Program-made: the position numbers and the translations under genes
Notes under the pieces: model-generated
Database searches by the model: none
Told to the model about the DNA's origin: nothing
The model's input: only the letters and a program-made list of their open reading frames with translations
Part shown: one piece after another, positions 2,820-25,946 of the stretch
Layout of the letters: each line of letters starts with the position of its first letter
Position numbering within the stretch: the stretch's first letter is position 1
Source: Clostridia bacterium
GTDB taxonomy: Bacteria; Bacillota; Clostridia; Oscillospirales; Acutalibacteraceae
Direction of reading: 5' to 3'
NCBI GenBank assembly: GCA_017623615.1
Contig: JAGAOT010000014.1
Span: 78,958 to 110,957, forward strand
DNA length: 32,000 nucleotides

Positions 2820-5800
2820 TTATTCAAATCGGTATGATAACATAATGTCTATCAATTCACCTGTAGGAGGATTACCGGACTCGAATTTATGTTTATAAAT
2901 AATCGAAACAGTATCACCGATTTTCCAGTCTTCAATATTGTCAACTTTAAAGGCAACAACATCGGAGCCGTATTTTTTACTGCTGTACCCATCAAGATTG
3001 TTACGTTCAGCATTAACTATTATATAATCCCCAGACTTATCAAGAATTCTGTTTTGAGTCATTCCTATTTCATCGCGCTTATATCTTATAAACTCTGTGC
3101 CGTCAGCATCATAGAATATAGTTTCTTCCAAAGTCCACGCCATGATTCTGTTATTCGAAATGAACTCAAGATTTAAATATTCCTCGGTAATCTTGTTTCC
3201 GTCCAAATCAACAAGCCAGAATTTTTCATTATTATGATTATTGTCTTCCCACTTACAGCCAATGCCGACTTTTGCATTTTCAGCATAAGTGATGTAAGTG
3301 AACTCGCCCACAGGACAAATGACACTTCCGTCTGCGCCGTAAATTTCCACAACATCCGTCGGCTCAACGCCGTTAAGCTGACCTTTTCTTGCAAGAATGC
3401 GTTCCGCGCTCAAAAATTTAATTTCATTATACTCGCAAGGAACAACAACCTCAAAATCGGCATTGACCGCGCCGTAGGTAACTTTGTTGTTTTCGTATTT
3501 TGTTACAAGCTGCAAACCGCCCGCCGCCGGCTCACCGAGCGGCTTTAAGTTTTTATCTCTCGTTTCGATAACATTGCATTTGCTGTCAAAGACATAGAGC
3601 GTGCCATCCTTAACGCCCTCAAATTCGCCGAGAAGCGAGTTAAGCTTCAGCCTGTCATAATCATCGGGGGCAATTATGGTTTTACCCTCCAAATCCGTAA
3701 CATATGCTTTTTCGCTGAAAGGCTCGATATAAAGCGCGTCAGCTATGCTTGCTTCGCCGCTGGTAAGCGGATAAATCATGCCGCGGAAATAGGGAATTAT
3801 CTCTGTGCCGTCGCCGTGAATAAGCGCGGAGCGTATTGTTTCACCGCTGCTTTGGATAACATAAGCATCGGAATCCACCCATGTTGAGGTTGTGTCGCCG
3901 AAATAATCCATAGCCTTTCTTTCGCAATAATAGCCAAGGCTTTCCGAATCGACACTTGTGTTATTTATGAGATTTTCCAAAACAGAAAAATTCTCATTAC
4001 TAATGTCCTTGCCCATCTCAGCAAATTCATTAAGCACAAACTCTTCGCCGCTGTAATTGAATGTTATAACTGCGGTGTTGCCCGTTTCACCTTCCATACG
4101 AGGCTCACCCTCATAATAACTGTAAGATTGATAAACATACTGCACATATGCCTTGACATTGGGCACGCTGTCAAAATAATCGGTGCGCAAAATAACAAAG
4201 CTGTTGAAGCCGTATTCGCCCCCATGGCTTTTTCTGTGGCGTTCATTTATCGCCTTTGAAATTGCATCATCCAAAGAATATGCCTTGTTCAGCCTGAAAG
4301 CCTCAGAATAAAGGAAATCATCCAAAGAGTAATAGTTTGTGCCGAGAACGCAGATATAAATTTCGCGCCTGTCCTCACCCTGCGGACCCGTTACGGGGGA
4401 TTTTCGGTCAACAATAAGAAAATCGTCATAAGAATACGCGGCGCAATTATCCACGCCGTATTTTTCTTTGATGCATCTGCCGAGCAGAGCATCCTCGGCG
4501 GCGTTTTGGGCGATTGTTTCGGCAGTTATCAAGCCGTCAACAAGAGCTTCTCTCAATTCAACCGTTTTGCCGTTGATATTAATATTGACCTCGGACAAGC
4601 CGAAATAATAAATATCAAGGCTGTATTTTTTCTCAAGCTCACCGTAGGTTACTTCTTTGACGGACTGTTCTCCGCTTTCAACAACTTTAAAAATATTCTG
4701 CCCGAAGCCGTCAACCCCGTTTTTTTCGGTCAGTCTGAACACATCCATTGCATATTCGCTTCGCGGAAGCCGCCCGCAGATTATATCACCGTTGCGCATA
4801 AGCAGCAGCACATGTGTCATAACACCCTGCTCCGCATCAAGGGTGAATTCGTGCATATACGCCTTGCTGAAACCGATTATTCGGTGATATAGCGGCAGCT
4901 CGTAAACGACCATATCAACAAGTTCATTTTCTGTTTCTTCAAGCAGTGCAAGAGTACCGATTTCATCGACATAGCCGCCGTTAATCTTTGCCATCATTAA
5001 ATCATCGGAAATGCTGTAGCGTAAGTTTTGCTCCACCAGCTTCCTGCCGTCAACAACCGATGAATGATAATATTTGCTTACCTCATAAACCTTGCCGCCT
5101 ATGTCGGAATTTGACGGATTAGTCATGAAGCATACCGCGGCAATAATGCTTATCACAACCGCCGCAACTATAACCCAAAACGCAGGCTTTTTATAGCTTA
5201 AAACATTTTTTATTCTGTCCTTAACGCCGACCTCGCCGAATGCAACGGGGCATGCGGTAATCATTTTGCGCGGAACGCTGCAGGAAAGCAGAGCCTCGGA
5301 ATAGCTCTTTTTTGACTCCTCACCCATCGACTTTATTACCCGCTCATCGCACGCAAGCTCGATATCACGGCAAAGAAGAATATACGCTGCCCAAATGAGC
5401 GGATTAAACCAATAAGCGGTCAAAACAAAAAATCCGAGCGGCTTCCACCAATGGTCGCGGCGTTTAAGATGCGCCTTTTCGTGGGCTATAACATATTGCC
5501 TCTGCTCCTCGGGCATGGCGGAGGGCAAATATATTTTCGGCTTTATTATGCCGAGAATAAACGGGCTTGAAATGCCGTCGCAAAGCAAAATGCTGCCGTC
5601 GAGGGGCATTGAAATTTTAACCCTTCTGCGGATTCTGATATAGCTTACAAGGCTGTAGATAAGCAAAGCCGCAACGCCGACAATCCAGATTGCCGATGCA
5701 ACGGCGGTTACAATCCGCATGGGATTTACGCTTTCGGTATAGTCCGGAGCAAAATTTTGCGAAATTATCGGATTAACCGCTTGGTTAACCGCCGAAATGC

Positions 5801-6044
5801 CGCTGTTGATGCTCGGCAAATCGGAATACCCTATATTCGGCGGCACGGTTTCCGCGCTCGGAATAAGGCTGAGCACGCTTTCAAATGAAAACGGGCACAA
5901 AAGCCTTACGCCGACAAGCGCCCACAGCGCGCAGTTAATCCATTTTGGGGCTTTTTTGAAAACAAATCGAATAAGTATAACCGCCAAGATAAGCCAAGAA
6001 GCGGTTATGCTCATGTTGAACATTTTCAGAAAAACAGCTTCCAT
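2820..6044 (-). CDS. BlaR1/MecR1-family M56 zinc-metalloprotease signal transducer with ~770-aa non-canonical extracellular domain
   Basis: 1074 aa. N-terminal TM segments and the M56 motif VIAHEKAHLKRRDHWWKP (HExxH), with a further TM near aa 285-305 (AFWVIVAAVVISIIAAVCFM). The long C-terminal region has WG-repeat-like segments (KFWLVDLDGNKITEEY, AVNADFEVVVPCEYNEIKF). Its ATG 6042-6044 lies 2 nt from the blaI-like stop. Confidence 0.85.
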   Translation of the reverse strand: MEAVFLKMFNMSITASWLILAVILIRFVFKKAPKWINCALWALVGVRLLCPFSFESVLSLIPSAETVPPNIGYSDLPSINSGISAVNQAVNPIISQNFAPDYTESVNPMRIVTAVASAIWIVGVAALLIYSLVSYIRIRRRVKISMPLDGSILLCDGISSPFILGIIKPKIYLPSAMPEEQRQYVIAHEKAHLKRRDHWWKPLGFFVLTAYWFNPLIWAAYILLCRDIELACDERVIKSMGEESKKSYSEALLSCSVPRKMITACPVAFGEVGVKDRIKNVLSYKKPAFWVIVAAVVISIIAAVCFMTNPSNSDIGGKVYEVSKYYHSSVVDGRKLVEQNLRYSISDDLMMAKINGGYVDEIGTLALLEETENELVDMVVYELPLYHRIIGFSKAYMHEFTLDAEQGVMTHVLLLMRNGDIICGRLPRSEYAMDVFRLTEKNGVDGFGQNIFKVVESGEQSVKEVTYGELEKKYSLDIYYFGLSEVNININGKTVELREALVDGLITAETIAQNAAEDALLGRCIKEKYGVDNCAAYSYDDFLIVDRKSPVTGPQGEDRREIYICVLGTNYYSLDDFLYSEAFRLNKAYSLDDAISKAINERHRKSHGGEYGFNSFVILRTDYFDSVPNVKAYVQYVYQSYSYYEGEPRMEGETGNTAVITFNYSGEEFVLNEFAEMGKDISNENFSVLENLINNTSVDSESLGYYCERKAMDYFGDTTSTWVDSDAYVIQSSGETIRSALIHGDGTEIIPYFRGMIYPLTSGEASIADALYIEPFSEKAYVTDLEGKTIIAPDDYDRLKLNSLLGEFEGVKDGTLYVFDSKCNVIETRDKNLKPLGEPAAGGLQLVTKYENNKVTYGAVNADFEVVVPCEYNEIKFLSAERILARKGQLNGVEPTDVVEIYGADGSVICPVGEFTYITYAENAKVGIGCKWEDNNHNNEKFWLVDLDGNKITEEYLNLEFISNNRIMAWTLEETIFYDADGTEFIRYKRDEIGMTQNRILDKSGDYIIVNAERNNLDGYSSKKYGSDVVAFKVDNIEDWKIGDTVSIIYKHKFESGNPPTGELIDIMLSYRFE

Positions 6045-6046
6045 AA

Positions 6047-6409
6047 TCAGCCCTCCCCGTAAGAATCAATCATTTTGCGGATTTCGGAAATCTCATGCGC
6101 AGAGAGCTTTTTACGGGATGAAAACGCGGCGATAAACGCGGGCAACGAGCCTTTGAATGCATCATCAACGAACTTTTCGCTTTGAATGGCAAAGAATTCG
6201 TCTTTTGTCATCAGCGACGTTACCGCCCCGTTTTCATTTTTGAAAATCCCCCGTTCGCAGAGCTTTCGCAAAACCGTGTAGGTTGTTGACTTTTTCCAAT
6301 TCAGCTCTTTTTCGCAAAGCTTAACAAGCTCGCCTGAAGCGATTGGCTCATTCTGCCATATTATATCGGCAAAATGCTCCTCAACAACGCCCAATTTAAT
6401 ATCTTCCAT
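6047..6409 (-). CDS. BlaI/MecI/CopY-family winged-helix transcriptional repressor
   Basis: 120 aa with typical family length and text (VEEHFADIIWQNEPIASGELVKLCEKELNWKKSTTYTVLRKLCERGI). SD AAGGAGGAG upstream. Translationally adjacent to the M56 sensor. Confidence 0.85.
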   Translation of the reverse strand: MEDIKLGVVEEHFADIIWQNEPIASGELVKLCEKELNWKKSTTYTVLRKLCERGIFKNENGAVTSLMTKDEFFAIQSEKFVDDAFKGSLPAFIAAFSSRKKLSAHEISEIRKMIDSYGEG

Positions 6410-6539: not shown

Positions 6540-6571
6540 GAAAAACGGCCTGCACTAAATATGCAAGCCGT
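6540..6571 (-). terminator. Intrinsic terminator directly after the acyl-CoA-synthetase fusion gene
   Basis: Stem ACGGCCTGCA (6545-6554) / TGCAAGCCGT (6562-6571) with one wobble, and a T-run on the minus strand (plus-strand A-run 6541-6545). Confidence 0.7.
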
Positions 6572-6577
6572 TTGTTT

Positions 6578-8863
6578 TTATTTGCCTGTCCTAAGGTCTA
6601 CACGGCGGATTTTGCCGCTGATTGTCTTGGGCAAATCGTCTCTGAATTCAACGATTCTGGGGTATTTATAGGGAGCGGTATGTGTTTTAACATATTCCTG
6701 GATTTCCTTTTTGAGTTCGTCTGTGCCGACGGTGCCTTTGGTTAAAACAACAGAAGCTTTAACAATCTGACCTCTTACTTCGTCAGGAACGGGAGTAACT
6801 GCACATTCAAGAACATAGGGAAGTTCCATAATAACACTTTCAATTTCGAAGGGTCCTATACGGTAGCCTGATGACTTGATAACGTCATCGATACGGCCAA
6901 CATACCAAAGATAACCGTCTTCGTCCATTGTTGCGGTATCGCCTGTATGATAATAGCCGTCGTGCCATACATCGTTTGTTTTTTCTTCATCAAGATAGTA
7001 GCCTATAAACAAGCCGCAGGGAACGTTATCCTTTGTACGGATACAGATTTCACCGGTGTCACCTGTTTTGCATTCATTGCCGTCGGGGTCGAGAACAACA
7101 ACATCATAAAGAGGGCTGGGTTTACCCATTGAGCCTATTTTGGGAGTTGAACCAACGAAATTCGCAATAGAAAGAGTTGTTTCGGTCTGACCGAAGCCTT
7201 CCATAATGGTAAGACCCGTTGCCTTCTTGAACTGATTGAAAACCTCGGGATTAAGAGCTTCACCTGCTGTTGTTGCATATTCGATTGAAGAAAGGTCATA
7301 CTTTGACAAATCTTCTTTGATGAAGAATCTGTACATCGTGGGAGGTGCGCAGAAGGTTGTTATATTATACTTCTTGAAAAGAGGAAGAATATCGTCTGAA
7401 TGGAATCTGTCGAAGTCATATGTGAATACACCTGCTTCGCAAAGCCACTGACCATAGAGCTTGCCCCAGAGTGCTTTACCCCAGCCTGTATCTGAAATTG
7501 TGAAATGAAGGCCGTCGGGATTAACATTATGCCAATGCCTTGCAGTGGGATAATGACCGAGAGCATATTTGTATGAATGGGTTGCAATGCGAGGATAGCC
7601 CGTTGTGCCCGATGTGAAAAGCATAAGCATGGGGTCGTTGCCGCAAGGTGAGTTTTCGTTGCGGAAGAAATGGGTGCTGAAGCGTTCCATTTCAACGTTG
7701 AAATCATTCCAACCGTCTTTCTTGCCGCCAACAAGAACTTTTATCATTTCGGGGAACTCTGCTGCAGCCTTTTCCGCTTCGGCAGAAACATCACCGTCTG
7801 CGGTACAAACGATTGCTTTTACGCCGGCAGCTTTATATCTGTATGTAAAATCGTGTTCAACAAGCTGATTTGTTGCGGGAATTGCGATTGCACCAATCTT
7901 ATGAAGAGCAAGCATACAGAACCAGAACTGGTAGTGACGCTTAAGAACAAGCATAACCGTATCGCCTTTTTTGATTCCGAGAGATTCAAAATAGTTGGCG
8001 GTTTTTGCCGAATATTTCTTCATATCGCTGAATGTGAATCTGCGTTCGGATTTATCGTTTCCGACCCACATCATAGCGAGCTTATCGGGTGTTTTTGCCG
8101 CAATTTCATCAACACAGTCAAATGCGAAATTGAATTTGTCTTCATTTTTAAATGAAATACCGCTGAATACACCGTTTTCATCATAGTATGATTCAATGAA
8201 ATTATCGGCAACGGTTGTTTTGGAACTCTTTTCTGAAGATGAGGTTTTAGCTGAAACATCGGGAGTTTCGGGATATTCCTCGCTCACCTGACCATTCTGA
8301 GGATTAAGAACAACAGCGTGGAATTCACAACCGCCTTCGCTTACGGCTATCATACCGTGAGGTATAAGGCTGTTATAGAAAATTGAATCGCCCTCATTAA
8401 GGATATCAACATGGTTGCCAACCTGAACCTTAAGCGAACCCTTAACGATAACATCAAACTCCTGACCGTTATGGGAGCTGAGTTTTATGGGTGCGTTCTG
8501 TTCCTCTTCAAGATAAGGGAATTTAACAAGGAAAGGCTCCGCAAGCTTTTCCTTGAATTTGGGTGCAAGGTTATTATAGATATAGCCTTTTTTCTTGATG
8601 ATTTTGGCACCTTCGCCTTTTCTTGTTATTGCAAAAGATGTAAGAGTTGAGCTTCTGCCTTCGAGAATATCAACAACCTCAACGCCGCAAGCCTTTGCAC
8701 ATTTATAAATGAATGTAAAGCTGAAATCGGTTTCGCCCTGTTCAAGAATTTTATAATCCTCAACCGATACGCCCGTAAGCTTTGCAAGCTCTTCCTGCGA
8801 ATAACCTGTTACTTCACGCAAATCTTTGATTCTGCCGGCAACCTCTTTCAAATTGTAGTCCAT
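6578..8863 (-). CDS. Fusion protein: XRE-type HTH + cupin domain + AMP-forming acyl-CoA synthetase/ligase (ACSM-like)
   Basis: HTH text LKEVAGRIKDLREVTGYSQEELAKLTGVSVEDYKILEQG. Cupin text DVIVKGSLKVQVGNHVDILNEGDSIFYNSLIPHGM. Adenylation motifs MLFTSGTTGYPR, YHTGD and the C-terminal SGKIRR. Start moved to ATG 8863 (MDYNLKE) because SD AAAGGAG (8872-8878) precedes it; the track start 8884 has no SD. Confidence 0.85.
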   Translation of the reverse strand: MDYNLKEVAGRIKDLREVTGYSQEELAKLTGVSVEDYKILEQGETDFSFTFIYKCAKACGVEVVDILEGRSSTLTSFAITRKGEGAKIIKKKGYIYNNLAPKFKEKLAEPFLVKFPYLEEEQNAPIKLSSHNGQEFDVIVKGSLKVQVGNHVDILNEGDSIFYNSLIPHGMIAVSEGGCEFHAVVLNPQNGQVSEEYPETPDVSAKTSSSEKSSKTTVADNFIESYYDENGVFSGISFKNEDKFNFAFDCVDEIAAKTPDKLAMMWVGNDKSERRFTFSDMKKYSAKTANYFESLGIKKGDTVMLVLKRHYQFWFCMLALHKIGAIAIPATNQLVEHDFTYRYKAAGVKAIVCTADGDVSAEAEKAAAEFPEMIKVLVGGKKDGWNDFNVEMERFSTHFFRNENSPCGNDPMLMLFTSGTTGYPRIATHSYKYALGHYPTARHWHNVNPDGLHFTISDTGWGKALWGKLYGQWLCEAGVFTYDFDRFHSDDILPLFKKYNITTFCAPPTMYRFFIKEDLSKYDLSSIEYATTAGEALNPEVFNQFKKATGLTIMEGFGQTETTLSIANFVGSTPKIGSMGKPSPLYDVVVLDPDGNECKTGDTGEICIRTKDNVPCGLFIGYYLDEEKTNDVWHDGYYHTGDTATMDEDGYLWYVGRIDDVIKSSGYRIGPFEIESVIMELPYVLECAVTPVPDEVRGQIVKASVVLTKGTVGTDELKKEIQEYVKTHTAPYKYPRIVEFRDDLPKTISGKIRRVDLRTGK

Positions 8864-8901
8864 ATTTTTTGCTCCTTTCATCAAATTTGCTTTGAGAAAA
8901 A

Positions 8902-9168
8902 CAAAAAACGTCCCAAAGCAATAAATTTGCTTTGAGACGAGTAAAATCTAACCCGCGGTACCACTCAAATTGCGCTTTTGCGCCGCTCAACGGACTCCAA
9001 CAAGCCCTGCACCTTAACGCGGTGACCACGGAAGCTGTCTACTGACCGAACGGCTTTCGGAGCTTCGGCTCGGAAGGGATAGCCTTGAACTGTTTCGCTG
9101 ACGGCTCGCACCAAACGCCGCCTCTCTGAAAGCTCTGCAATTCCGCCTTCTTCGTCATAGCTTTTCTT
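8902..9168 (-). promoter_or_regulatory. T-box riboswitch leader (tRNA-sensing transcription antitermination); tentative GCU (Ala) specifier
   Basis: Minus strand shows an AGAGAG bulge and a GGTGCGA distal loop closed by GGCGGC/GCCGTC. The T-box sequence AATTTGAGTGGTACCGCGGG is at 8952-8971. A 12-bp terminator GTCTCAAAGCAA/TTGCTTTGGGAC (8910-8938) is followed by GTTTTTTG. TTTGAG/CTCAAA antiterminator pairing is possible. Candidate specifier loop is AAG-GCT-A (GCT = 9081-9083). Confidence 0.85.
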
Positions 9169-9175
9169 GTGTGAT

Positions 9176-9204
9176 ATAATAGCACCGAAAAAATGATTTG
9201 TCAA
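9176..9204 (-). promoter_or_regulatory. Sigma-70-type promoter driving the T-box leader
   Basis: Minus strand TTGACA (9199-9204), 17-nt spacer, TATTAT (9176-9181). Confidence 0.7.
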
Positions 9205-11605: not shown

Positions 11606-13237
11606 TTATTCTGCAATAATTTTATACAGTTTATTATGTATATCCGCTTTTCGGCTTTCTGCCTGCTCGCGGTTTTCACCCTTGACGGAAAAATACATTT
11701 TCAGCTTAGGCTCTGTTCCTGAGGGTCTGACCGCCGCCCATGAGCCGTCCTTAAAATCAAAACGGAGCACGTTTTCCTTGGGCAAATCATCAATGCCCTT
11801 TGAATAGTCGAGAAGCACATCAATATCGTCAAAGAGGTCATTGCCCGTTTCGCGCAGGGATTTCATTGCGGACTGAATCTTTTCCGCGCCCTCTTTGCCC
11901 TTTAAAACAACGGTTTCAAGGCAGTCATAGTAATAGCCGTATTCGGCATAGACCGCATCGAGTGCATCAACAAGAGTTTTGCCTTTATTCTTATAGTATG
12001 CCGCCATTTCGGCGATAAGCATTGCAGATGAAACGGCATCCTTATCCCTCGCATGAGTGCCCGCAAGGTAGCCGTAGCTCTCCTCATAGCCGAAAAGGAA
12101 GGTTTGCTCGCCGCTTTCTTCCCAACGACAGATTTTTTCTCCGATATACTTAAAGCCCGTGAGAGTCTGCACAGCCTTTGCGCCGTGCTTTTCCGCAATG
12201 GCTGCACCAAGCCCGCTTGTTACGATTGTTTTGACAACGGCGGCATTCTTCGGCATGCTGTCTTTCTTGAATTTGAGAACAAAATCAACAAGAAGCGCGC
12301 CCGTCTGGTTGCCCGTTAAAAGAGTGTATGCGCCGTTATGAAGAACGCCAACGCCTATTCTGTCGCAGTCGGGGTCGGTGCCGATAACAACATCCGCGCC
12401 CTCTGCCTCGGCTTGTTTAAGGGCAAGGGTGAGAGCATCCTTTTCCTCGGGGTTGGGCGAACGCACGGTTGAAAAATCGCCGTCGGGCAGCTCTTGCGCC
12501 TTAACGATTGAAACATTCTTGCCATCAAGAATGCGGCGAACGGGGATATTGCCCGTGCCGTGAAGCGCGGTGTAAACTATTTTAAGCTCCGACGGCTCAT
12601 TATAAAGGCTCTGCTTTTTAACCTCGGTAAGAAATGCATTGAGAGTGTCGTCGCCTATCATAACAAGTCTGCCGCTCTTTTCAGCTTCGTCAAGCGAAAC
12701 AGACGGAATGTTTTTGATATCCTCAACCGCATTTACAAAAGCAATAACCTTGTCGGCATATTGCGGAACAAGCTGGCAGCCTTTGCTGTCATAAACCTTG
12801 TAGCCGTTGTATTCCTTGGGATTGTGGCTTGCGGTTATAACTATGCCCGCGGTGCAGTTGTGGTATCTGACCGCAAAGGAAAGAACGGGGGTCGGCATAA
12901 GAGTATCGAAAAGATAAACCTTGATTCCCGCCGCGCAGAGAACGCCCGCCGCGGTTTGCGCAAAAAATTGAGAATTGTTTCTTGAATCAAACGCGATTGC
13001 AACGGATTTTTCGCCGTCAAACTCTGCGTTAAGATAATCCGCAAGACCCTTTGTTGCCTTTGAAACGGTGTATTTATTCATTCTGTTTGCGCCTGCGCCC
13101 ATAATTCCGCGCAGACCGCCCGTGCCGAATTCAAGCTCTTTATAAAATCTGTCCTCAAGCTCAGCCTTGTCGGTTATGCTTTCAAGCTCTTTTTTTGTTT
13201 CTTTATCAAATGTCAGCCAATATTCATATGCATTCAT
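11606..13237 (-). CDS. Phosphoglucomutase/phosphomannomutase-family phosphosugar mutase
   Basis: 543 aa. Active-site serine loop ITASHNPKEYNGYK, metal loop GTDPDCDRIG, and sugar-binding GYEESYGY. Confidence 0.9.
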   Translation of the reverse strand: MNAYEYWLTFDKETKKELESITDKAELEDRFYKELEFGTGGLRGIMGAGANRMNKYTVSKATKGLADYLNAEFDGEKSVAIAFDSRNNSQFFAQTAAGVLCAAGIKVYLFDTLMPTPVLSFAVRYHNCTAGIVITASHNPKEYNGYKVYDSKGCQLVPQYADKVIAFVNAVEDIKNIPSVSLDEAEKSGRLVMIGDDTLNAFLTEVKKQSLYNEPSELKIVYTALHGTGNIPVRRILDGKNVSIVKAQELPDGDFSTVRSPNPEEKDALTLALKQAEAEGADVVIGTDPDCDRIGVGVLHNGAYTLLTGNQTGALLVDFVLKFKKDSMPKNAAVVKTIVTSGLGAAIAEKHGAKAVQTLTGFKYIGEKICRWEESGEQTFLFGYEESYGYLAGTHARDKDAVSSAMLIAEMAAYYKNKGKTLVDALDAVYAEYGYYYDCLETVVLKGKEGAEKIQSAMKSLRETGNDLFDDIDVLLDYSKGIDDLPKENVLRFDFKDGSWAAVRPSGTEPKLKMYFSVKGENREQAESRKADIHNKLYKIIAE

Positions 13238-13241
13238 AAAT

Positions 13242-16181
13242 TCACATCCTAAATCCGAGAGTTATTATTTCAAACGGGGAATATTCTATTTTGTCGCTTT
13301 CGCCGATTTCATCTTCGAGCATGTTGAGAACCGCGGCTTTTTCGGGCAATTCGACAACTCCCCTTTCGCCGTTTTGCTCACAAAGACGAACAACGATGTA
13401 TTTGCCGTTTTCGGAAAGCTTGACTGCCTGAAGCCAGAGCTTGCCGAAATCGGGCAGAGCGCATTCAACATCCGCCTTGCGGAGCGGAACATTGTATTCA
13501 AACGCTGTCTTGTTGATATCCGCGCTGACGGCATCACCCGCATGGGGATAAATCATATAGCAGAAGTTATGCGTACCCATATCCGAGGTCGGGTCGGGTC
13601 TTATCGTTGCACGCAGAAGCGACAAAGCCATTGTTGAGCCCTCTGCCGATACGCCGTATTTACCCTCATTTATGAGCGCAACGCCGCCCCCCTGCTCCGC
13701 CATGTCGCACCATTTATGGTGGCACACCTCAAAGCGCGCCTGCTGCCAGCTTGTGTTGCGGTGGGTTTCGCGGCGGATTATACCCGCCGATGTATCACAA
13801 ACAAGCTCGCGGCTCAAAACATTGCAGCCGTATTCAGCCTTAACAAGCTTATGCTTTTCGTTCCAATCAACAATATTTTCAATTTCAATTCCTCTTGAAT
13901 CGCGGAAAAGGCGGATTATCATTTGCCATTCGCTCTTTTCCGTTGCAAGAGTTACCGAAAACTCGGCGCATTCGCCGTCAGCCATGATAAATTCAAGCGG
14001 CTTTTTAACCGCAATTTCGCAGGGTCTGTCCTTATAGTTGGGAAGAATATCCCATGCATCATAGTTGCCGGGTGTATCGTGATACATTTTCAGCTTGTTG
14101 AAATCTCCCTTTACCCATTCGCGGCAAAGCTCTTTATCGCGCAGGGAAAGAATACTGCCGTCGGGAGCAAATTTTATTGAATAAAGCGGAGTTTCAACAT
14201 TGTTACCGTTAACACTTATCCAATCGGTGCCGCCCTTTGCAGGCTCAATTTGTCCGCTTGAAAGAGCAAATATATCGGGAATTGTGTAATAACCCTTTTC
14301 ACCCTTGCGGATGATATTTCCGTTTTTATCGGGAATGAAAGTAACGCTTTTTCTTTTAAAATTGAGCGTGTTTAAATACTTTGTACCGCCGCCTATGATT
14401 TCTGCGAGGTCTTTTTCCATTTGCTCATAGTCAGCCATTGCATCGCGGTAAACGGGCGTTATATGGCTGCCGGGCAAAATATCGTGAAACTGATTTATCA
14501 TCAGCTTTTTATAGATTTCTCTCAATTTTTCAGCGGGATATTCTTTGCCGTTTTTCATGCGCAGAACGCTCAAAAGCTCGGCATCGCGAAGCATAAATTC
14601 GAGCTTTCGGTTATATGCCTTCATCTTTGATTTTGTAGTAAAGGTGCCTCTGTGCATTTCAAGATAAAGCTCGCCGTCCCATGTTGCAAGCTTATCGTTG
14701 CCGTCGAAATTCTTTTTGAGGAATTCACTGCCCGTTGTATGCTCCGTTTTGGGCATTACGGAAAGCTTTTCAAAGCGGTGCATAAGCTCAACCATTTCTT
14801 CGGTTGCGCCGCTGCCGCCATCGCCGTAGCCAAACATTTGCAGAGTCTGACCGCCCTCGTTTTTATCCTGATATGCCTCCCAGTTTTCCTGCACCTGGCT
14901 GGGCATATTCCACGTTATAAAGTGAGTGGGCGGCACGCAGGCATAAACCTCGGAGCCGTCAATGCCTTTCCAGATGAAGTTGTTGTGAGGGAAGCGGTTT
15001 GTGTCGTTCCACGTTGACATTTTGTTGGAAACAAAATAGTCCACTCCGCTCTTTTTGAGAATCTGCGGCAAAATCCAGCTGTTGCCGAAAACATCGGGCA
15101 GCCAGCAGTTGTTGACCGTTAATCCGAATTTTTCGCGGAAATAGCTCTGACCGTAAAGGCATTGGCGGATAAGGCTTTCGCAGGCGGGCACATTGCAGTC
15201 CGGCTCAACATACATTGCGCCTACGGGCTCAAACCTGCCCTCGGCAATTCTCTTTTTAAGCTCTTCAAAAATTTCGGGATAATATTTTTCAACCGTTTCG
15301 TATGTATAAGCCTGCGTATGGGCGTATTTGAAATCGGGGTATTTATCCATTAATCGAAGCTGAATGAGCACCGTTCGCAGATTTTTTTGAACGGCATGAA
15401 TTCTGCGCCAATAATATGCAATGTCAAGGTGAGAATGCGCAACAAGCGCAACATTGCCGCTGCCCTTATAATCTTTATTAGCGAAAATATTTTCGTCAAT
15501 ATATTTTGATGCCGCTATCACATCCTCATCGCGCAAATCGTCAAAATCAATGAGATTGAGCGCCGCATCAAGCCCGCGGATAACCATTGCGGAAAAGTCC
15601 TCGTTAAAGACCTCGCTGAGTGCCGCATCAAGCAGCATTTCGATATCATAAACCAGCGACTGAACCGCTTCGTTGACAACGGAAATATAACCGCCCTCAA
15701 AAATCTGTCTGCAGCCCCTTACGCTGAGGCTTTCGGGGTTACGCTCGTCATCGGGCTTTGAGCGGTTGTAGCCCATAATTTCAAAATGCAGCTTTCTGCC
15801 CTCAGCATAGTCGGAAAGATTGAGCCTTTCGCGGTTGGGGTCAATGCCGCCGACATAAACGCCGTTGACCTTAACAATCATTTCCGCGGCGGTTTTGAGA
15901 GAGAAGCAGTATTTTTTACCCTCAAGATGCGCGGGCAATTCATAATCAGCTTCGATAAACGCCGTGCCGTCGGGAGTGAAATACATATCGCCCTTTTTGA
16001 GCGGTCTGAATTCTTCGTCATAAAACTCAAAATTCATTTCGGACACCTGACGGGCATCCTTTATCATAAATGTTGTTATTTCGTTTTTCTCGCTGTAAAT
16101 ATGTCTTTTGAGCCAGCCGAAGCGAAGCTGAATCCATTCCTCGGGCCTCATGCTTCTTCGCTGAACCTTAATATGTGCCAT
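13242..16181 (-). CDS. GH38 alpha-mannosidase
   Basis: 979 aa. Has the GH38 N-terminal signature VAHSHLDIAYYW and the typical length and architecture. SD GAGGTGAAG upstream. Its stop lies 4 nt from the mutase ATG. Confidence 0.85.
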   Translation of the reverse strand: MAHIKVQRRSMRPEEWIQLRFGWLKRHIYSEKNEITTFMIKDARQVSEMNFEFYDEEFRPLKKGDMYFTPDGTAFIEADYELPAHLEGKKYCFSLKTAAEMIVKVNGVYVGGIDPNRERLNLSDYAEGRKLHFEIMGYNRSKPDDERNPESLSVRGCRQIFEGGYISVVNEAVQSLVYDIEMLLDAALSEVFNEDFSAMVIRGLDAALNLIDFDDLRDEDVIAASKYIDENIFANKDYKGSGNVALVAHSHLDIAYYWRRIHAVQKNLRTVLIQLRLMDKYPDFKYAHTQAYTYETVEKYYPEIFEELKKRIAEGRFEPVGAMYVEPDCNVPACESLIRQCLYGQSYFREKFGLTVNNCWLPDVFGNSWILPQILKKSGVDYFVSNKMSTWNDTNRFPHNNFIWKGIDGSEVYACVPPTHFITWNMPSQVQENWEAYQDKNEGGQTLQMFGYGDGGSGATEEMVELMHRFEKLSVMPKTEHTTGSEFLKKNFDGNDKLATWDGELYLEMHRGTFTTKSKMKAYNRKLEFMLRDAELLSVLRMKNGKEYPAEKLREIYKKLMINQFHDILPGSHITPVYRDAMADYEQMEKDLAEIIGGGTKYLNTLNFKRKSVTFIPDKNGNIIRKGEKGYYTIPDIFALSSGQIEPAKGGTDWISVNGNNVETPLYSIKFAPDGSILSLRDKELCREWVKGDFNKLKMYHDTPGNYDAWDILPNYKDRPCEIAVKKPLEFIMADGECAEFSVTLATEKSEWQMIIRLFRDSRGIEIENIVDWNEKHKLVKAEYGCNVLSRELVCDTSAGIIRRETHRNTSWQQARFEVCHHKWCDMAEQGGGVALINEGKYGVSAEGSTMALSLLRATIRPDPTSDMGTHNFCYMIYPHAGDAVSADINKTAFEYNVPLRKADVECALPDFGKLWLQAVKLSENGKYIVVRLCEQNGERGVVELPEKAAVLNMLEDEIGESDKIEYSPFEIITLGFRM

Positions 16182-16192
16182 TGCGCTTCACC

Positions 16193-16426
16193 TCACACAT
16201 CCTGAAAATAAGGTTTTTTACGAATGCCGATAATCTTAACCTTTTCGCCTCTGTCGGCTTCAACTCTTTGCTCAATCCAAGCAAGGCAGCGGTCAAGAAT
16301 AAGGCATTTTGAGCATTCGCCCTGCAAAAGAACGGTTACTTCATCGCCCTCTTGCTTAACGAAGGTTATTTCGCCGCCATCGCCCTGAAGCCTCGGGCGG
16401 ATATATTCATTGATATATTTTTCCAA
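16193..16426 (-). CDS. NifU-like (Nfu C-terminal domain) small Fe-S scaffold-type protein
   Basis: 77 aa: IRPRLQGDGGEITFVKQEGDEVTVLLQGECSKC with a CxxC pair. TTG start 16426 after GGGAGGTG. It is the first gene of the GH38 operon. Confidence 0.75.
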   Translation of the reverse strand: MEKYINEYIRPRLQGDGGEITFVKQEGDEVTVLLQGECSKCLILDRCLAWIEQRVEADRGEKVKIIGIRKKPYFQDV

Positions 16427-16457
16427 ATCGGCACCTCCCGATATTACTCTATTTTAG

Positions 16458-16486
16458 ATTATATCATCTATTTTTTTATCAATCAA
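16458..16486 (-). promoter_or_regulatory. Promoter of the nifU-like/GH38/mutase operon
   Basis: Minus strand TTGATT (16481-16486), 17-nt spacer, then TGaTATAAT extended -10 (TATAAT = 16458-16463). Confidence 0.65.
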
Positions 16487-16559
16487 TTAAAAATTTAATA
16501 AAATATAATATTTTTGCTTCCAAACGTGTGCAGGCTGTGGTAAAATTATTGTGAACTTG

Positions 16560-16683
16560 TAAGTGAAAAGTTAAAAGTGAAGAGTGCAAAGTTTTGGGTG
16601 GGCAAAGCCCACACCCAATTTATAATCTGTCATAGGCGGAGCCTATCCGCAACTTTTCACTTTTCATTCTTCACTCTTCACTA
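16560..16683. repeat. MITE-like / large palindromic element: ~33-bp imperfect terminal inverted repeats around a two-hairpin core
   Basis: Left arm 16560-16593 (TAAGTGAAAAGTTAAAAGTGAAGAGTGCAAAGTT) matches the reverse complement of right arm 16651-16683 at 27/33 positions with one gap. Core hairpins are TTGGGTGGGCAAAGCCCACACCCAA (16594-16618) and ATAGGCGGAGCCTAT (16632-16646). Confidence 0.6.
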
Positions 16684-16700
16684 AAAATCGGGGTGATTTG

Positions 16701-18248: not shown

Positions 18249-18259
18249 CAGGTGATTAT

Positions 18260-18781
18260 TTGAAAAGAGCTTTTTCAATCCTTGCCGCGCTGATTTTTCT
18301 TTTGGCGGCGGGATGTGAAAAACAAGGGATTAACGAAACCGCTCCCCCTGCCGCACCGACTGCATTCACGGCAAATTTAAACGTTACATTCGGGGACACG
18401 GAAATGACCGCAAAGCTGACGCAAAACTCACCCGACAGCTTTGAAATCCAAATACTTTCTCCCGAAATACTCAGCTCTCTCGCGCTTGCTTATGCAAACG
18501 GAACTTGTACGGTCACATATGACGGGCTGAAATTTGAAACGGATTTAACAAGATTTCCGCAGGCGGAGTTCGGCGCGCTCGTCACACAGACTCTTGCGGA
18601 CATTGCGCAGGATATGAACATTCAAAAAACATATTCCGAGGGAGTCTGGACATATAAAGGCGCGGGAGAACGGGGCACCTTTTCGCTCACGCAAAGCGCA
18701 GAAACGGGTGCATGGCTCGAGCTGACCGTTGACGGCGCGGATTTGCATGTTGTTTTCAGCGATGTTGCTCTGACACAATAA
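18260..18781 (+). CDS. Putative lipoprotein of unknown function
   Basis: TTG start after AGGTGA. Signal peptide with lipobox LLAAGC (MKRAFSILAALIFLLAAGCEKQ). Confidence 0.7.
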   Translation: MKRAFSILAALIFLLAAGCEKQGINETAPPAAPTAFTANLNVTFGDTEMTAKLTQNSPDSFEIQILSPEILSSLALAYANGTCTVTYDGLKFETDLTRFPQAEFGALVTQTLADIAQDMNIQKTYSEGVWTYKGAGERGTFSLTQSAETGAWLELTVDGADLHVVFSDVALTQ

Positions 18782-18782
18782 C

Positions 18783-18820
18783 AAAGACGGCTTAAGCGTA
18801 AAATTGCTTAAGCCGTCTTT
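18783..18820. terminator. Bidirectional intrinsic terminator
   Basis: 15-bp perfect stem AAAGACGGCTTAAGC / GCTTAAGCCGTCTTT with an 8-nt loop, between convergent genes. Confidence 0.85.
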
Positions 18821-18830
18821 TCTGTTAAAA

Positions 18831-20930: not shown

Positions 20931-20940
20931 AAAAATCTCC

Positions 20941-22020: not shown

Positions 22021-22096
22021 CGAAATCTCCTCCGATAAACATATGGTTATATTTTAACATATTCAGCATCGTTTTCAATAGCAAAATTAAAATCTG

Positions 22097-22125
22097 TTGA
22101 CAATATTTTTTTGAAGTTATATATT
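22097..22125 (+). promoter_or_regulatory. Promoter of the GH125 gene
   Basis: TTGACA (22097-22102), 17-nt spacer, TATATT (22120-22125). SD AAAGGAG precedes ATG 22155. Confidence 0.6.
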
Positions 22126-22154
22126 TTAAGATAGCAAACTGAAAGGAGCTTCAT

Positions 22155-23524: not shown

Positions 23525-23600
<76 letters not shown>

Positions 23601-23636
23601 ATCCCTTGAAACTTAAGGTTTCAAGGGATTTTTCTT
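23601..23636 (+). terminator. Intrinsic terminator after tRNA-Thr
   Basis: 12-bp stem ATCCCTTGAAAC / GTTTCAAGGGAT with loop TTAAG, followed by a T-run. Confidence 0.8.
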
Positions 23637-23655
23637 GTGTTTTATGAAATTCATC

Positions 23656-23700
23656 AGACCGCATCCCTAAATCGCAATTTTTTAGTAAGGGATGCGGTCT
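23656..23700 (+). repeat. 13-bp perfect inverted repeat abutting the integrase start
   Basis: AGACCGCATCCCT (23656-23668) / AGGGATGCGGTCT (23688-23700) with a 19-nt loop. It ends 4 nt before ATG 23705. Confidence 0.7.
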
Positions 23701-23704
23701 AACT

Positions 23705-24637: not shown

Positions 24638-24644
24638 TATAAAG

Positions 24645-24691: not shown

Positions 24692-24747
24692 TTAATTAGT
24701 TTGAAACAACCTTTTTGCTACATTATAAGAACTTTTTAACAACTTTT

Positions 24748-25869: not shown

Positions 25870-25946
25870 AATATCACCTTCTTGTGTCTGTTGGCGATAT
25901 TATAACACGCAAAACCAAAAGTGTGAAGATGTATTTTATAAAGCAC

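What the first reader, a model, noticed from the sequence alone, without database searches (positions are those of the whole stretch)
6578..9204. T-box leader controlling an HTH-cupin-acyl-CoA-synthetase fusion rather than an aminoacyl-tRNA-related gene
The leader has all T-box landmarks and a consensus promoter. The candidate specifier is GCU (Ala): it is followed by the usual purine, and the T-box bulge reads UGGU, which pairs with an A73 discriminator (Ala-compatible, Gly-incompatible). The specifier-loop fold is ambiguous by eye, and GGC, CUA or UAU cannot be excluded. T-boxes normally regulate aaRS, amino-acid biosynthesis or transporter genes. Here the only downstream gene is a 761-aa fusion of an XRE HTH, a cupin ligand-binding domain and an ACSM-like adenylate-forming ligase. 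Uncharged-tRNA control of an adenylating enzyme that carries its own DNA-binding domain suggests an amino-acid-linked substrate (amino-acid or keto-acid activation) and two layers of regulation.
Basis: partly seen in the sequence, partly recalled or inferred. Interest (0 to 1): 0.65.

Follow-up and report, generated by a model that had tools for sequence, protein, structure and literature searches.

The report
Isoleucine T-box controls methylbutyrate-CoA ligase
A genuine tRNA-sensing T-box riboswitch, specific for isoleucine and not alanine as first read, switches on an enzyme that most likely activates the gut fatty acid 2-methylbutyrate so the bacterium can rebuild isoleucine from it, which gives a candidate gene and regulator for a rumen pathway known since the 1960s.

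Summary
The T-box is real. Rfam RF00230 matches full-length (83.7 bits, E 1e-18), below the curated cutoff of 93, but orthologous leaders score up to 97.6. The canonical fold is 96% paired across 74 leaders, with 29 compensatory pairs. The specifier is AUC (Ile), invariant in 75/75 orthologous leaders.

The 761-aa HTH-cupin-ligase is confirmed. Its ligase part is 56% identical to MacsMa (PDB 3ETC), whose preferred substrate is 2-methylbutyrate, and the studied pocket residues are conserved.

In relatives, paralogues carry Val (GUC/GUA) T-boxes, and pocket residue 462 tracks the specifier (Gly 46/46 for Ile, Ala 21/21 for Val). The genes are often followed by VorB-type 2-oxoacid:ferredoxin oxidoreductase and IlvE. 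Nearby, Phe T-boxes precede phenylacetate-CoA ligase.

Best reading: isoleucine starvation induces 2-methylbutyrate activation for reductive carboxylation to isoleucine. This is amino-acid biosynthesis and fits T-box logic. The HTH-cupin module is conserved and keeps a His/Glu/His triad, but its role is unknown, so "two layers of regulation" is untested. I found no paper describing the link.

The parts
9176..9204 (-). Sigma-70-type promoter: TTGACA (9204-9199), 17-nt spacer, TG-extended TATTAT (9181-9176)
   Evidence: 11/12 match, TG present. The promoter is conserved in 75 orthologous loci.
9068..9161 (-). T-box Stem I: K-turn at the base, specifier loop, AGAGA bulge (9127-9123), distal loop GUUUGGUGCGA (9116-9106)
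   Evidence: Helices are 75-100% paired across 74 leaders. The helix below the specifier loop covaries: A-U in 52 leaders, G-C in 21.
9078..9080 (-). Specifier codon AUC (Ile). It is followed by C (9077) here and by A in most orthologues.
   Evidence: Invariant in 75/75 orthologous leaders. The Rfam model aligns it to the codon columns.
9081..9083 (-).
   Evidence: this triplet is CUU 26, CCC 25, CCU 16, GCU 4, UCU 4 across orthologues.
9031..9066 (-). Stem II, with CCGAAAG...AGUAGAC internal motifs
   Evidence: The lower helix is 98.9% paired. The upper helix pair is CG 31 / GC 29 / UA 6 / AU 4.
9010..9030 (-). Stem IIA/IIB pseudoknot, including the F-box-like CCGCGUUA
   Evidence: IIA is 99.5% paired. 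IIB is 99.3% paired, with compensatory changes.
8992..9007 (-). Extra hairpin between the IIA/B pseudoknot and Stem III (GGGCUU-GUUG-GAGUCC)
   Evidence: It is 100% paired, and 4 of 6 pairs show compensatory changes. The Rfam alignment treats it as an insertion.
8972..8983 (-). Stem III (GCGC-AAAA-GCGC), flanked by GAGCG and AA
   Evidence: 100% paired, with the outer pair A-U in 44 leaders and G-C in 30.
8931..8969 (-). Antiterminator with the 7-nt T-box bulge UGGUACC. UGGU at 8963-8960 pairs with an ACCA 3' end (A73).
   Evidence: Calculated stability is -5.9 kcal/mol.
8899..8939 (-). Intrinsic terminator (13-bp stem at 8939-8909, then U-run), mutually exclusive with the antiterminator
   Evidence: (-17.6 kcal/mol).
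8872..8878 (-). Ribosome-binding site AAAGGAG
6578..8863 (-). CDS of 761 aa: XRE-type HTH (aa 8-64), cupin (aa 127-184; invariant H131/E135/H169), variable linker (aa 189-222), AMP-forming acyl-CoA ligase (aa 223-759)
7478..7480 (-). Codon for Gly462, in the pocket segment GW-G-KALW. It is equivalent to MacsMa Gly255, between Trp254 and Lys256.
   Evidence: Gly in 46/46 AUC-led enzymes, Ala in 21/21 GUN-led enzymes. Gly in 62/62 orthologues.
6543..6573 (-). Terminator closing the monocistronic unit

Best explanation
This is a class-I transcriptional T-box riboswitch specific for tRNA-Ile (specifier AUC; UGGU pairing with A73). It sits in front of a single gene for an AMP-forming short/branched-chain acyl-CoA ligase of the MacsMa type, fused to an N-terminal HTH-cupin module.

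Proposed mechanism:
1. When isoleucine is plentiful, charged tRNA-Ile cannot stabilise the weak antiterminator (-5.9 kcal/mol). The strong terminator (-17.6 kcal/mol) then stops transcription before the gene.
2. When isoleucine is scarce, uncharged tRNA-Ile binds the specifier and the T-box bulge. The antiterminator forms and the ligase is made.
3. The ligase converts exogenous 2-methylbutyrate, abundant in rumen and gut, to 2-methylbutyryl-CoA.
4. A VOR-type 2-oxoacid:ferredoxin oxidoreductase reductively carboxylates it to 2-oxo-3-methylvalerate, and a branched-chain aminotransferase makes isoleucine.

Shown here: T-box identity, structure and specifier; domain architecture; close homology to a 2-methylbutyrate-preferring enzyme; specifier/pocket covariation; and clustering with VOR and IlvE in relatives.

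Inferred: the actual substrate, the direction of flux, and regulation in vivo.

The role of the HTH-cupin module is open. It could be a sensor, an autoregulator or a second activity.
For: RNA:
- Full-length RF00230 match, E 1.3e-18. Orthologous leaders score 87-98 bits.
- The T-box core is present upstream of essentially every orthologue with enough sequence.
- The canonical fold is 96.1% paired, with 29/58 compensatory pairs and 0/500 shuffles reaching the observed values.
- AUC is invariant in 75/75 leaders.
- Terminator and antiterminator energies fit a default-OFF switch.

Enzyme:
- The best solved structure is 3ETC/MacsMa: E 1e-199, 55.6% identity over 518 aa.
- MacsMa prefers 2-methylbutyrate (PMC10455477).
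- 12 of 13 functionally studied MacsMa residues are identical, including Trp259 and the Gly that replaces the Acs Trp.
- The best NCBIfam hit is MbcS, which is selective for 2-methylbutyrate and isobutyrate (PMC10026030).

Family logic:
- Diverse fusion genes carry AUC or GUC/GUA leaders, often as Ile-then-Val tandems.
- Residue 462 is Gly in 46/46 AUC-led enzymes and Ala in 21/21 GUN-led enzymes.
- Same-strand downstream genes include VorB (548 bits, cutoff 399), OFOR beta and gamma subunits, and IlvE (476 bits, cutoff 307), in 16 of 87 loci.
- L087 is an Ile T-box operon that ends in an aminotransferase.
- Phe (UUC) T-boxes precede PaaK phenylacetate-CoA ligase in neighbouring positions.

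Physiology: reductive carboxylation of 2-methylbutyrate to Ile, isobutyrate to Val, isovalerate to Leu and phenylacetate to Phe is documented for rumen organisms (PMC2812497; PMC7356843).

Habitat: bovine and sheep gut.
Against: - No VOR, IlvE or transporter gene lies in this 32-kb window. The gene is monocistronic here, so the pathway link rests on relatives at 48-65% identity.
- There is no substrate assay and no expression data. The public runs gave only contig-level depth.
- The Rfam score is below the gathering threshold.
- In the window's clade the base after the specifier is C, not the usual purine.
- The proximal Stem I lacks a clear AGUA/GAA S-turn.
- The NCBIfam MbcS score (445) is far below its equivalog cutoff of 850.
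- The NJ tree does not split Ile- and Val-led enzymes cleanly.
- No tRNA-Ile gene was available to check A73 directly.
Confidence: 0.72

Rival explanations
1. Same Ile T-box and same 2-methylbutyrate-CoA ligase, but the product serves as a primer for anteiso branched-chain fatty acid synthesis, as with S. aureus MbcS. Isoleucine starvation would remove the normal Ile-derived primer and induce salvage of the free acid for membrane lipids, not for isoleucine.
For: - MbcS is the best NCBIfam hit, and it feeds FabH with 2-methylbutyryl-CoA and isobutyryl-CoA (PMC10026030).
- In this window the gene stands alone, without VOR or IlvE.
- Both uses could coexist.
Against: - The relatives' clusters pair the ligase with VorB/beta/gamma and IlvE or another aminotransferase, not with fab genes.
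- The parallel Phe T-box in front of PaaK cannot be explained by lipid primers.
- The signal sensed is tRNA charging, that is, demand from protein synthesis.
Confidence: 0.13
2. Same Ile T-box, but the physiological substrate is propionate (or another small acid). Propionyl-CoA would be reductively carboxylated to 2-oxobutyrate, which enters the ordinary ilv pathway to isoleucine.
For: - MacsMa forms adenylates with C3-C8 acids (PMC10455477).
- The NCBIfam hits include acetate and propionate ligases at lower scores.
- From general knowledge, the propionate to 2-oxobutyrate route is known in anaerobes.
Against: - MacsMa completes the CoA step preferentially with 2-methylbutyrate.
- The pocket residues are identical to those of MacsMa.
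- The Val-led paralogues differ by Gly462Ala. That fits a C5/C4 branched pair, not a propionate-based scheme, which has no Val counterpart.
- The VorB-type oxidoreductase is the branched-chain type.
Confidence: 0.08
3. One reading: an alanine (GCU) T-box controlling activation of an amino acid or keto acid.
For: - GCU followed by A is present in the window's specifier loop.
- UGGU is compatible with tRNA-Ala A73.
Against: - GCU is present at that position in only 4 of 75 orthologous leaders, while AUC is present in 75/75.
- GCU lies 4 nt from the closing helix, outside the canonical frame used by Rfam and TBDB (PMC7778990).
- The enzyme's nearest characterised relatives use fatty acids, not amino or keto acids.
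Confidence: 0.01
4. The protein is mainly a transcription factor. The HTH-cupin binds DNA and the ligase domain acts as a ligand sensor, so the T-box controls a regulator rather than a metabolic enzyme.
For: - The HTH and cupin are nearly as conserved as the ligase (87% and 91% against 91-94%).
- A divergent paralogue (P0127) has degenerate adenylation motifs but keeps the HTH-cupin.
- A conserved element lies between the -10 box and Stem I.
Against: - In the window protein all adenylation motifs and the MacsMa catalytic and CoA-site residues are intact.
- A stand-alone ligase without the HTH-cupin (P0124) also has an Ile T-box.
- The top fold matches include enzymes whose HTH-like domain is not known to bind DNA.
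Confidence: 0.06

Closest known systems
T-box leader family (Rfam RF00230), e.g. ileS and ilv-leu T-boxes of Firmicutes
   Same: - Full architecture: Stem I with K-turn, specifier loop, AG bulge and distal loop; Stem II; IIA/B pseudoknot; Stem III.
- UGGN bulge in an antiterminator that competes with an intrinsic terminator.
- A C-ending specifier.
- Control of an amino-acid supply gene.
   Different: - The target gene is an acyl-CoA ligase, which I did not find described as a T-box target.
- An extra hairpin lies between the IIA/B pseudoknot and Stem III.
- The proximal Stem I is atypical, and the base after the codon is C in this clade.
- The score is just under Rfam's gathering cutoff.
MacsMa, the medium-chain acyl-CoA synthetase of Methanosarcina acetivorans (PDB 3ETC)
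   Same: - 55.6% identity over the whole ligase.
- Trp237, Trp254, Lys256, Trp259, Cys298, Gly351, Gly459, Tyr460, Arg490, Lys519, Tyr525 and Tyr527 are identical.
- MacsMa prefers 2-methylbutyrate.
   Different: - MacsMa is a stand-alone archaeal enzyme with no HTH-cupin.
- No T-box is expected in an archaeon.
- Its physiological role is unsettled.
MbcS, the methylbutyryl-CoA synthetase of Staphylococcus aureus
   Same: Same ligase family (best NCBIfam hit). It is selective for 2-methylbutyrate and isobutyrate, the two acids implied here by the Ile and Val specifiers.
   Different: - The score is 445 against an equivalog cutoff of 850, so the window protein is not an orthologue.
- MbcS feeds fatty-acid synthesis.
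- MbcS has no HTH-cupin fusion, and no T-box is reported for it.
Reductive-carboxylation route from branched or aromatic volatile fatty acids to amino acids in rumen anaerobes (VOR/IOR plus aminotransferase; PaaK for phenylacetate)
   Same: - The gene clusters in relatives encode ligase, VorB/beta/gamma and IlvE.
- Phe T-boxes precede PaaK.
- The habitat is ruminant gut.
   Different: The pathway is known from labelling and physiology. I did not find the activating ligases or their tRNA-dependent regulation described.
Two-domain HTH+cupin proteins: the regulator 1Y9Q (V. cholerae HTH_3 family), PuuR, and the enzymes HppE/HEPD/MPnS
   Same: - The fold match runs end to end (Foldseek E about 1e-10).
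- The His/Glu/His positions align with the HppE-type metal triad.
   Different: - Here the module is fused to a ligase.
- The relative domain orientation differs (TM about 0.35).
- Neither DNA binding nor metal binding has been tested.
Bifunctional enzyme-repressors such as BirA (HTH plus adenylate-forming biotin ligase)
   Same: An N-terminal HTH is fused to an adenylate-forming enzyme, which suggests a link between catalysis and gene control. This is an analogy from general knowledge.
   Different: - There is no homology to BirA.
- There is no evidence of DNA binding or of an operator.
- An additional cupin domain is present.

Membership tests
T-box riboswitch (RF00230) | Covariance-model match at or above Rfam's gathering score | tested here: not met
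   The window leader scores 83.7 bits against a gathering score of 93. The match covers the whole model (positions 1-219), with E 1.3e-18. Orthologous leaders score 87.4-97.6 bits, and L011 passes.
T-box riboswitch (RF00230) | Stem I with K-turn, specifier loop, AG bulge and distal loop, supported by covariation | tested here: met
   Stem I helices are 75-100% paired with compensatory changes. AGAGA and the distal-loop GGUG...GA are invariant.
T-box riboswitch (RF00230) | Specifier codon at the 3' end of the specifier loop, followed by a purine | tested here: inconclusive
   The codon position is met: AUC in 75/75 leaders. The following base is A in 66, G in 2 and C in 7, and the window itself has C.
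T-box riboswitch (RF00230) | Conserved T-box sequence with a UGGN bulge inside an antiterminator that excludes a terminator | tested here: met
   AAUUUGAGUGGUACCGCG is invariant. Helices A1 and A2 are 98-100% paired. The terminator overlaps the 3' strand and is followed by a U-run.
T-box riboswitch (RF00230) | Stem II and the IIA/B pseudoknot (class I architecture) | tested here: met
   Stem II is 89-99% paired with many compensatory pairs. IIA and IIB are 99% paired.
T-box riboswitch (RF00230) | The discriminator base of the cognate tRNA pairs with the N of UGGN | not testable with these tools
   UGGU predicts A73. No tRNA-Ile or tRNA-Val gene is present in the window or in 109 loci. A73 in bacterial tRNA-Ile and tRNA-Val is textbook knowledge.
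T-box riboswitch (RF00230) | tRNA-dependent antitermination | not testable with these tools
   This needs in vitro transcription or in vivo reporters.
MacsMa/MbcS-type short branched-chain acyl-CoA synthetase | Full AMP-forming ligase fold with intact adenylation and CoA-site motifs | tested here: met
   AMP-binding 200.6 bits and AMP-binding_C 79.9 bits. Motifs TSGTTGYPR, GFGQTET, YHTGD, GRIDDVIKSSGYRIGPFEIE and PKTISGKIRR are present.
MacsMa/MbcS-type short branched-chain acyl-CoA synthetase | Alternate acyl pocket: Gly in place of the Acs Trp, plus Trp259 | tested here: met
   Gly558 and Trp466 align with MacsMa Gly351 and Trp259. The role of these residues is described in PMC10455477.
MacsMa/MbcS-type short branched-chain acyl-CoA synthetase | NCBIfam MbcS equivalog score | tested here: not met
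   444.9 bits against a cutoff of 850. The protein is a relative, not an MbcS orthologue.
MacsMa/MbcS-type short branched-chain acyl-CoA synthetase | Preference for 2-methylbutyrate | not testable with these tools
   Inferred from homology, the Ile specifier and the Gly462/Ala462 covariation. An enzyme assay is needed.
XRE-HTH + cupin transcription regulators (PuuR/1Y9Q type) | N-terminal five-helix XRE HTH followed by a cupin barrel | tested here: met
   Pfam HTH_3, HTH_31 and Cupin_2. The AF2 model has mean pLDDT 80. Foldseek matches 1Y9Q at E 8e-11 over 198 columns.
XRE-HTH + cupin transcription regulators (PuuR/1Y9Q type) | Sequence-specific DNA binding with an operator | tested here: inconclusive
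   A conserved AAATTTGAATATCAC element lies next to the -10 box in most close orthologues. In diverse relatives, T[TC]GAATA occurs in only 7/62 leaders against 0.8 expected. No palindrome is general to the family. HppE-type enzymes match the fold equally well.

The most novel reading that the evidence does not exclude
The HTH-cupin-ligase is a 'trigger enzyme' that adds a second input to the T-box. The T-box reports demand (uncharged tRNA-Ile). The metal-binding cupin, or the ligase's acyl-adenylate state, reports supply (2-methylbutyrate) or end product (isoleucine). That signal would control either DNA binding at the element next to the -10 box or the enzyme's own activity. The family would then be a BirA-like class of enzyme-regulators for volatile-fatty-acid salvage. 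Duplicates would be retargeted between Ile and Val by a single specifier change (AUC to GUC) plus a single pocket change (Gly462Ala).
Probability: 0.2. Interest if true: 0.8.

Novelty: new member of a known kind. Interest (0 to 1): 0.58.

Why it matters
Many rumen and gut Firmicutes need branched-chain volatile fatty acids. Labelling work decades ago showed these acids are carboxylated into Ile, Val, Leu and Phe, but the activating enzymes and their regulation are poorly defined.

Here the T-box specifier acts as a natural label of amino-acid specificity on each ligase gene: AUC for Ile, GUC/GUA for Val, UUC for Phe in front of PaaK, and probably CUC for Leu. That yields concrete candidates for 2-methylbutyrate-, isobutyrate- and phenylacetate-CoA ligases in a very abundant family. 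More than 8000 database proteins reach E <= 1e-50, although that set includes unfused ligases. The top 120 hits all share the fusion architecture, and 583 confirmed relatives were found among species-representative genomes.

It also gives a single-residue specificity prediction (Gly462 for Ile, Ala462 for Val). It widens the known T-box regulon from aaRS, classical biosynthesis and transport genes to fatty-acid salvage routes. This is relevant to ruminant nutrition, where branched-chain VFA are supplemented, and to metabolic annotation of gut MAGs, where these genes are currently named 'AMP-binding protein' or 'helix-turn-helix domain-containing protein'.

Tried and rejected
- **Default Rfam scan:** found no T-box. 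This is a threshold effect, not absence.
- **RNAalifold on the full-leader alignment:** it mis-paired the base of Stem I with the antiterminator region, so I used an explicit canonical structure instead.
rejected, because only AUC is conserved and correctly placed.
- **CodY-box reading of the conserved AAATTTGAATATCAC element:** only about 8 of 15 positions match by eye, so I did not pursue it.
- **The same element as a family-wide operator:** only weakly enriched in diverse leaders.
- **Public sequencing runs:** only assembler contigs were available, and the run labelled transcriptomic has flat depth like the DNA run. There is no information on termination or read-through.
- **Look-up of the first gene of the L081 tandem:** The metagenome scan replaced it.
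- **Clean two-clade split of Ile- and Val-type enzymes:** not obtained in an NJ tree. Tandem partners sometimes group together.
- **Separate HTH-cupin regulator beside stand-alone relatives:** none found.
- **tRNA-Ile or tRNA-Val genes in 109 loci:** none.
- **Pathway partners inside the window:** none.
- **Literature searches linking T-boxes with acyl-CoA synthetase, PaaK or VOR:** nothing relevant.

Full report
**1. What is at the coordinates**

Everything in 6578-9204 reads on the minus strand. In 5'-to-3' order:
- A near-consensus promoter, TTGACA-17-TATTAT with a TG extension (9204..9176).
- A leader of about 270 nt.
- An intrinsic terminator at 8939..8909 followed by a U-run.
- An AAAGGAG ribosome-binding site, then an ATG at 8863.
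- A 761-aa ORF ending at 6578.
- A second terminator at 6573..6543.

Pfam finds HTH_3/HTH_31 (aa 8-64), Cupin_2 (aa 127-184), AMP-binding (aa 252-623) and AMP-binding_C (aa 673-751). The flanking genes are unrelated: BlaI/BlaR1-like downstream and a two-component system upstream. The rest of the window holds glycoside hydrolases and a tRNA-Thr-associated integrase region. The unit is monocistronic.

**2. Is the T-box real?**

At Rfam's gathering threshold only a tRNA is reported. With E-value reporting, RF00230 matches 9167..8930(-) over the whole model (positions 1-219) at 83.7 bits, E 1.3e-18. The curated cutoff is 93.

Eighty species-representative genomes encode the same protein at 87-96% identity. 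They are gut and rumen MAGs of Acutalibacteraceae/Oscillospiraceae, Ructibacterium and similar. Essentially every locus with enough upstream sequence carries the T-box core UGGUACCGCG 87-123 nt before the start codon. L047 has UGGUCCCGCG instead. Orthologous leaders score 87.4, 89.5 and 97.6 bits, so the subfamily straddles the cutoff.

I aligned 74 leaders (A1) and imposed the canonical architecture: Stem I, Stem II, the IIA/IIB pseudoknot, an extra hairpin, Stem III and the antiterminator. Results:
- 96.1% of cells form standard pairs, against 39-48% when partners are slid by 1-3 columns.
- 29 of 58 pairs show compensatory changes.
- No shuffle out of 500 reaches the observed values.

The terminator (-17.6 kcal/mol) is much more stable than the antiterminator (-5.9 kcal/mol), which is the usual default-OFF design.

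The lower Rfam score has visible causes. The proximal Stem I lacks the AGUA-type consensus, and there is an inserted hairpin (9007..8992) between the pseudoknot and Stem III.

**3. The specifier**

In the Stem I alignment, the 3' side of the specifier loop reads ...AUGAC-YY-AUC-A followed by the closing helix CUUC/CCUC. That helix covaries with GAAG/GAGG on the 5' side.
- AUC is invariant in 75/75 leaders.
- The next base is A in 66, G in 2 and C in 7. The window's clade has C.

The Rfam model aligns AUC-A to its codon-plus-purine columns in orthologues. TBDB uses the same positional rule and notes the preference for C-ending specifiers (PMC7778990). The specifier is therefore AUC (Ile) at 9080..9078. 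UGGU (8963..8960) predicts an A73 tRNA. From textbook knowledge that fits tRNA-Ile. No tRNA-Ile gene was available to check directly.

**4. The enzyme**

The ligase part (aa 223-759) matches PDB 3ETC at E 1e-199, with 55.6% identity over 518 residues. 3ETC is MacsMa from Methanosarcina acetivorans. Its preferred substrate is 2-methylbutyrate, and it is the only substrate reported there to be carried cleanly through both half-reactions. Its pocket uses Trp259 and a Gly in place of the Acs tryptophan (PMC10455477).

Twelve of the thirteen functionally studied MacsMa residues I could map are identical, and Lys461 is Arg. Part of that residue list comes from my memory of the MacsMa mutagenesis literature. 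Trp259, the Gly replacing the Acs Trp, Gly459, Tyr460, Lys461, Arg490, Lys519, Tyr525 and Tyr527 are named in the paper I read.

The best NCBIfam model is MbcS, at 445 bits and below its equivalog cutoff of 850. MbcS selectively activates 2-methylbutyrate and isobutyrate (PMC10026030). 2-Methylbutyrate is isoleucine minus its carboxyl carbon.

**5. Family-wide test**

At 50% clustering the full-length fusion forms only a few clusters: P0121, P0122 (56% identical to the window protein) and P0127 (41%). Most other hits are stand-alone ligases.
- P0122 is the second gene of a tandem of two fusion genes, each with its own leader. Its specifier position reads GUC-G, which is Val.
- P0127 has degenerate adenylation motifs. 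It is the second gene of an operon with the order T-box(AUC), fusion, P0127, aminotransferase.

A metagenome scan gave 80 further loci at 48-64% identity to P0122. I built a Stem I covariance model from the verified leaders (A2 and R1). It found 84 Stem I elements. In front of the 755-795-aa fusion genes, the specifier column is AUC, GUC or GUA. Nine contigs carry an AUC-led gene followed by a GUN-led gene.

After removing duplicates:
- 46 AUC-led and 21 GUN-led enzymes share all the MacsMa pocket and CoA-site residues.
- They differ completely at residue 462. It is Gly in 46/46 AUC-led enzymes, in MacsMa and in 62/62 close orthologues. It is Ala in 21/21 GUN-led enzymes.
- This residue lies between the pocket residues Trp254 and Lys256 of MacsMa. 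An added methyl group there fits a substrate one carbon smaller, isobutyrate for Val.
- Residue 560 in the GFGQ-T/S-E motif also tracks the specifier: Thr in 100% of AUC-led enzymes, Ser in 86% of GUN-led enzymes.

An NJ tree does not separate the two types cleanly. Tandem partners sometimes group together. That suggests repeated duplication or gene conversion with specifier switching, and AUC to GUC is a single base change.

A stand-alone ligase-GNAT relative (P0124) also has an AUC T-box. The T-box/ligase link is therefore wider than the HTH-cupin fusion.

**6. Pathway context**

In 16 of 87 metagenome-type loci, the fusion genes are followed on the same strand by:
- a small P-loop protein;
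- a VorB-type 2-oxoacid:ferredoxin oxidoreductase alpha subunit (548 bits, cutoff 399);
- beta and gamma subunits;
- and/or a branched-chain aminotransferase (476 bits, cutoff 307).

L091, for example, reads T[AUC]-ligase-T[GUA]-ligase-P-loop-VorB-beta-gamma-IlvE.

In the close genome relatives, other T-box-led genes lie next to the gene:
- Phe (UUC) T-boxes precede PaaK phenylacetate-CoA ligase.
- Tyr (UAC) T-boxes precede a Na+/solute symporter.
- A probable Leu (CUC) T-box precedes a TIM-barrel-ligase fusion.

An AMP-forming ligase drives acyl-CoA formation. Together with VOR and a transaminase, that is the reductive-carboxylation route from volatile fatty acids to amino acids described for rumen organisms (PMC2812497; PMC7356843). 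The organism occurs in bovine and sheep gut samples.

**7. The HTH-cupin module**

Among 62 orthologues, mean pairwise identity is 87% for the HTH, 91% for the cupin, 91-94% for the ligase, and only 60% for the linker at aa 189-222.

An AlphaFold model of aa 1-200 has mean pLDDT 80. It shows a five-helix HTH and a cupin barrel joined by a less confident segment. Foldseek matches two-domain HTH+cupin proteins end to end at E about 1e-10. These are the regulator 1Y9Q and also HppE, HEPD and MPnS, enzymes whose HTH-like domain is not known to bind DNA, as far as I recall.

His131, Glu135 and His169 align with the HppE-type metal triad. They are invariant in 67/67 diverse members and 62/62 close orthologues.

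A conserved AAATTTGAATATCAC element lies between the -10 box and Stem I in most close orthologues. In the window's clade it is reduced to ATATCAC. A T[TC]GAATA core recurs in only 7 of 62 diverse leaders, against 0.8 expected.

Whether the module binds DNA, a metal or a ligand is open.

**8. Verdict**

The interpretation needs correcting on two points:
- It is an isoleucine T-box, not an alanine one.
- The gene is best read as the entry step of an isoleucine salvage and biosynthesis route from 2-methylbutyrate. That fits T-box logic and does not break it.

Mechanistically this is an ordinary member of the T-box family. What appears to be undescribed in the searchable literature is:
- the target class, volatile-fatty-acid CoA ligases with VOR and IlvE;
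- the specifier/pocket covariation;
- the conserved HTH-cupin fusion.

Noticed in passing
L019:6515-8178; also L018(-) 5744, L054(-) 8201, L041:9576-9853, L079:9518-9795, L075(-) 1508: Phe-specific T-boxes (specifier loop GAA-UUC-A/C, UGGU; Rfam 103.8 bits in L019) precede PaaK-type phenylacetate-CoA ligase (TIGR02155, 533 bits). In L019 an ACT-domain protein follows. This is the same demand-sensing logic applied to phenylacetate and Phe.
   Followed up: partly
L049:2776-5645; the same protein family lies upstream of the Ile-T-box gene in 15 of 80 genome loci (e.g. L032:1169-3625): An approximately 820-845-aa fusion of a xylose-isomerase-like TIM barrel with a PRK12583-type acyl-CoA ligase. 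In L049 it has a T-box (94.9 bits) whose specifier position reads CUC (Leu; UAC is an alternative frame). The other copies showed no T-box core in the 200-420 nt available upstream. It could be the isovalerate/Leu counterpart.
   Followed up: partly
L011(-) 8222-7976, L037(-) ~8200-7980, L064(-) ~5917-5700: Tyr (UAC) T-boxes (128.9 bits in L011) precede a 511-516-aa Na+/solute symporter (SSF family) next to the ligase gene. It may be an amino-acid or aryl-acid transporter.
   Followed up: no
L087:3001-5277 (P0127): A paralogue 41% identical to the window protein. It keeps the cupin, but its adenylation motifs are degenerate (QSYSYGMAKP for TSGTTGYPR, HTGT for HTGD, NGVVIR for SGKIRR). It is co-transcribed behind an intact fusion gene and ahead of an aminotransferase. 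It may be a pseudo-enzyme acting as a sensor.
   Followed up: partly
window 9185-9170(-) and the orthologous promoters: A conserved AAATTTGAATATCAC lies between the -10 box and Stem I in most close orthologues. In the window's clade only ATATCAC remains. In L003 it forms the palindrome GTGATAT-T-ATATCAC across the -10 box. UAUCAC also recurs at the specifier. Its function is unknown: it could be an operator, a 5' RNA element, or chance.
   Followed up: partly
window CDS, aa 131, 135, 169 (codons at about 8473-8471, 8461-8459, 8359-8357, minus strand): The cupin keeps an invariant His/Glu/His triad that aligns with the Fe(II) site of HppE-type cupins. This suggests a metal site in a protein from strict anaerobes.
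   Followed up: partly
L107:3067-3735 and 13 other metagenome loci: A 223-aa P-loop protein (GHYGSGKT motif) with no NCBIfam hit sits between the ligase and the VOR genes. It is conserved in position, and its function is unknown.
   Followed up: no
L095:7369-7474 and downstream; L110(-) 484-1893: A Leu (CUC) T-box precedes a 2-isopropylmalate-synthase-like gene directly after the Ile/Val ligase tandem. De novo and salvage branched-chain amino-acid genes are therefore co-located and each is T-box-gated.
   Followed up: no
window 23525-28000: A tRNA-Thr(GGU) gene at 23525-23597 is immediately followed by a tyrosine-type integrase (23705-24637), a WYL/WCX protein, a SHOCT protein and a serine resolvase. 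This is probably an integrated mobile element at the tRNA gene.
   Followed up: no
window 2820-6409(-): A BlaI-type repressor (6047-6409) and a 1074-aa BlaR1/M56 sensor with a long C-terminal extension containing WG repeats lie directly downstream of the ligase unit.
   Followed up: no
window 11606-23438: A cluster of mannoside-degrading genes (GH38 alpha-mannosidase, GH125, GH3, phosphomannomutase-like). This points to a glycan-foraging lifestyle for the host organism.
   Followed up: no
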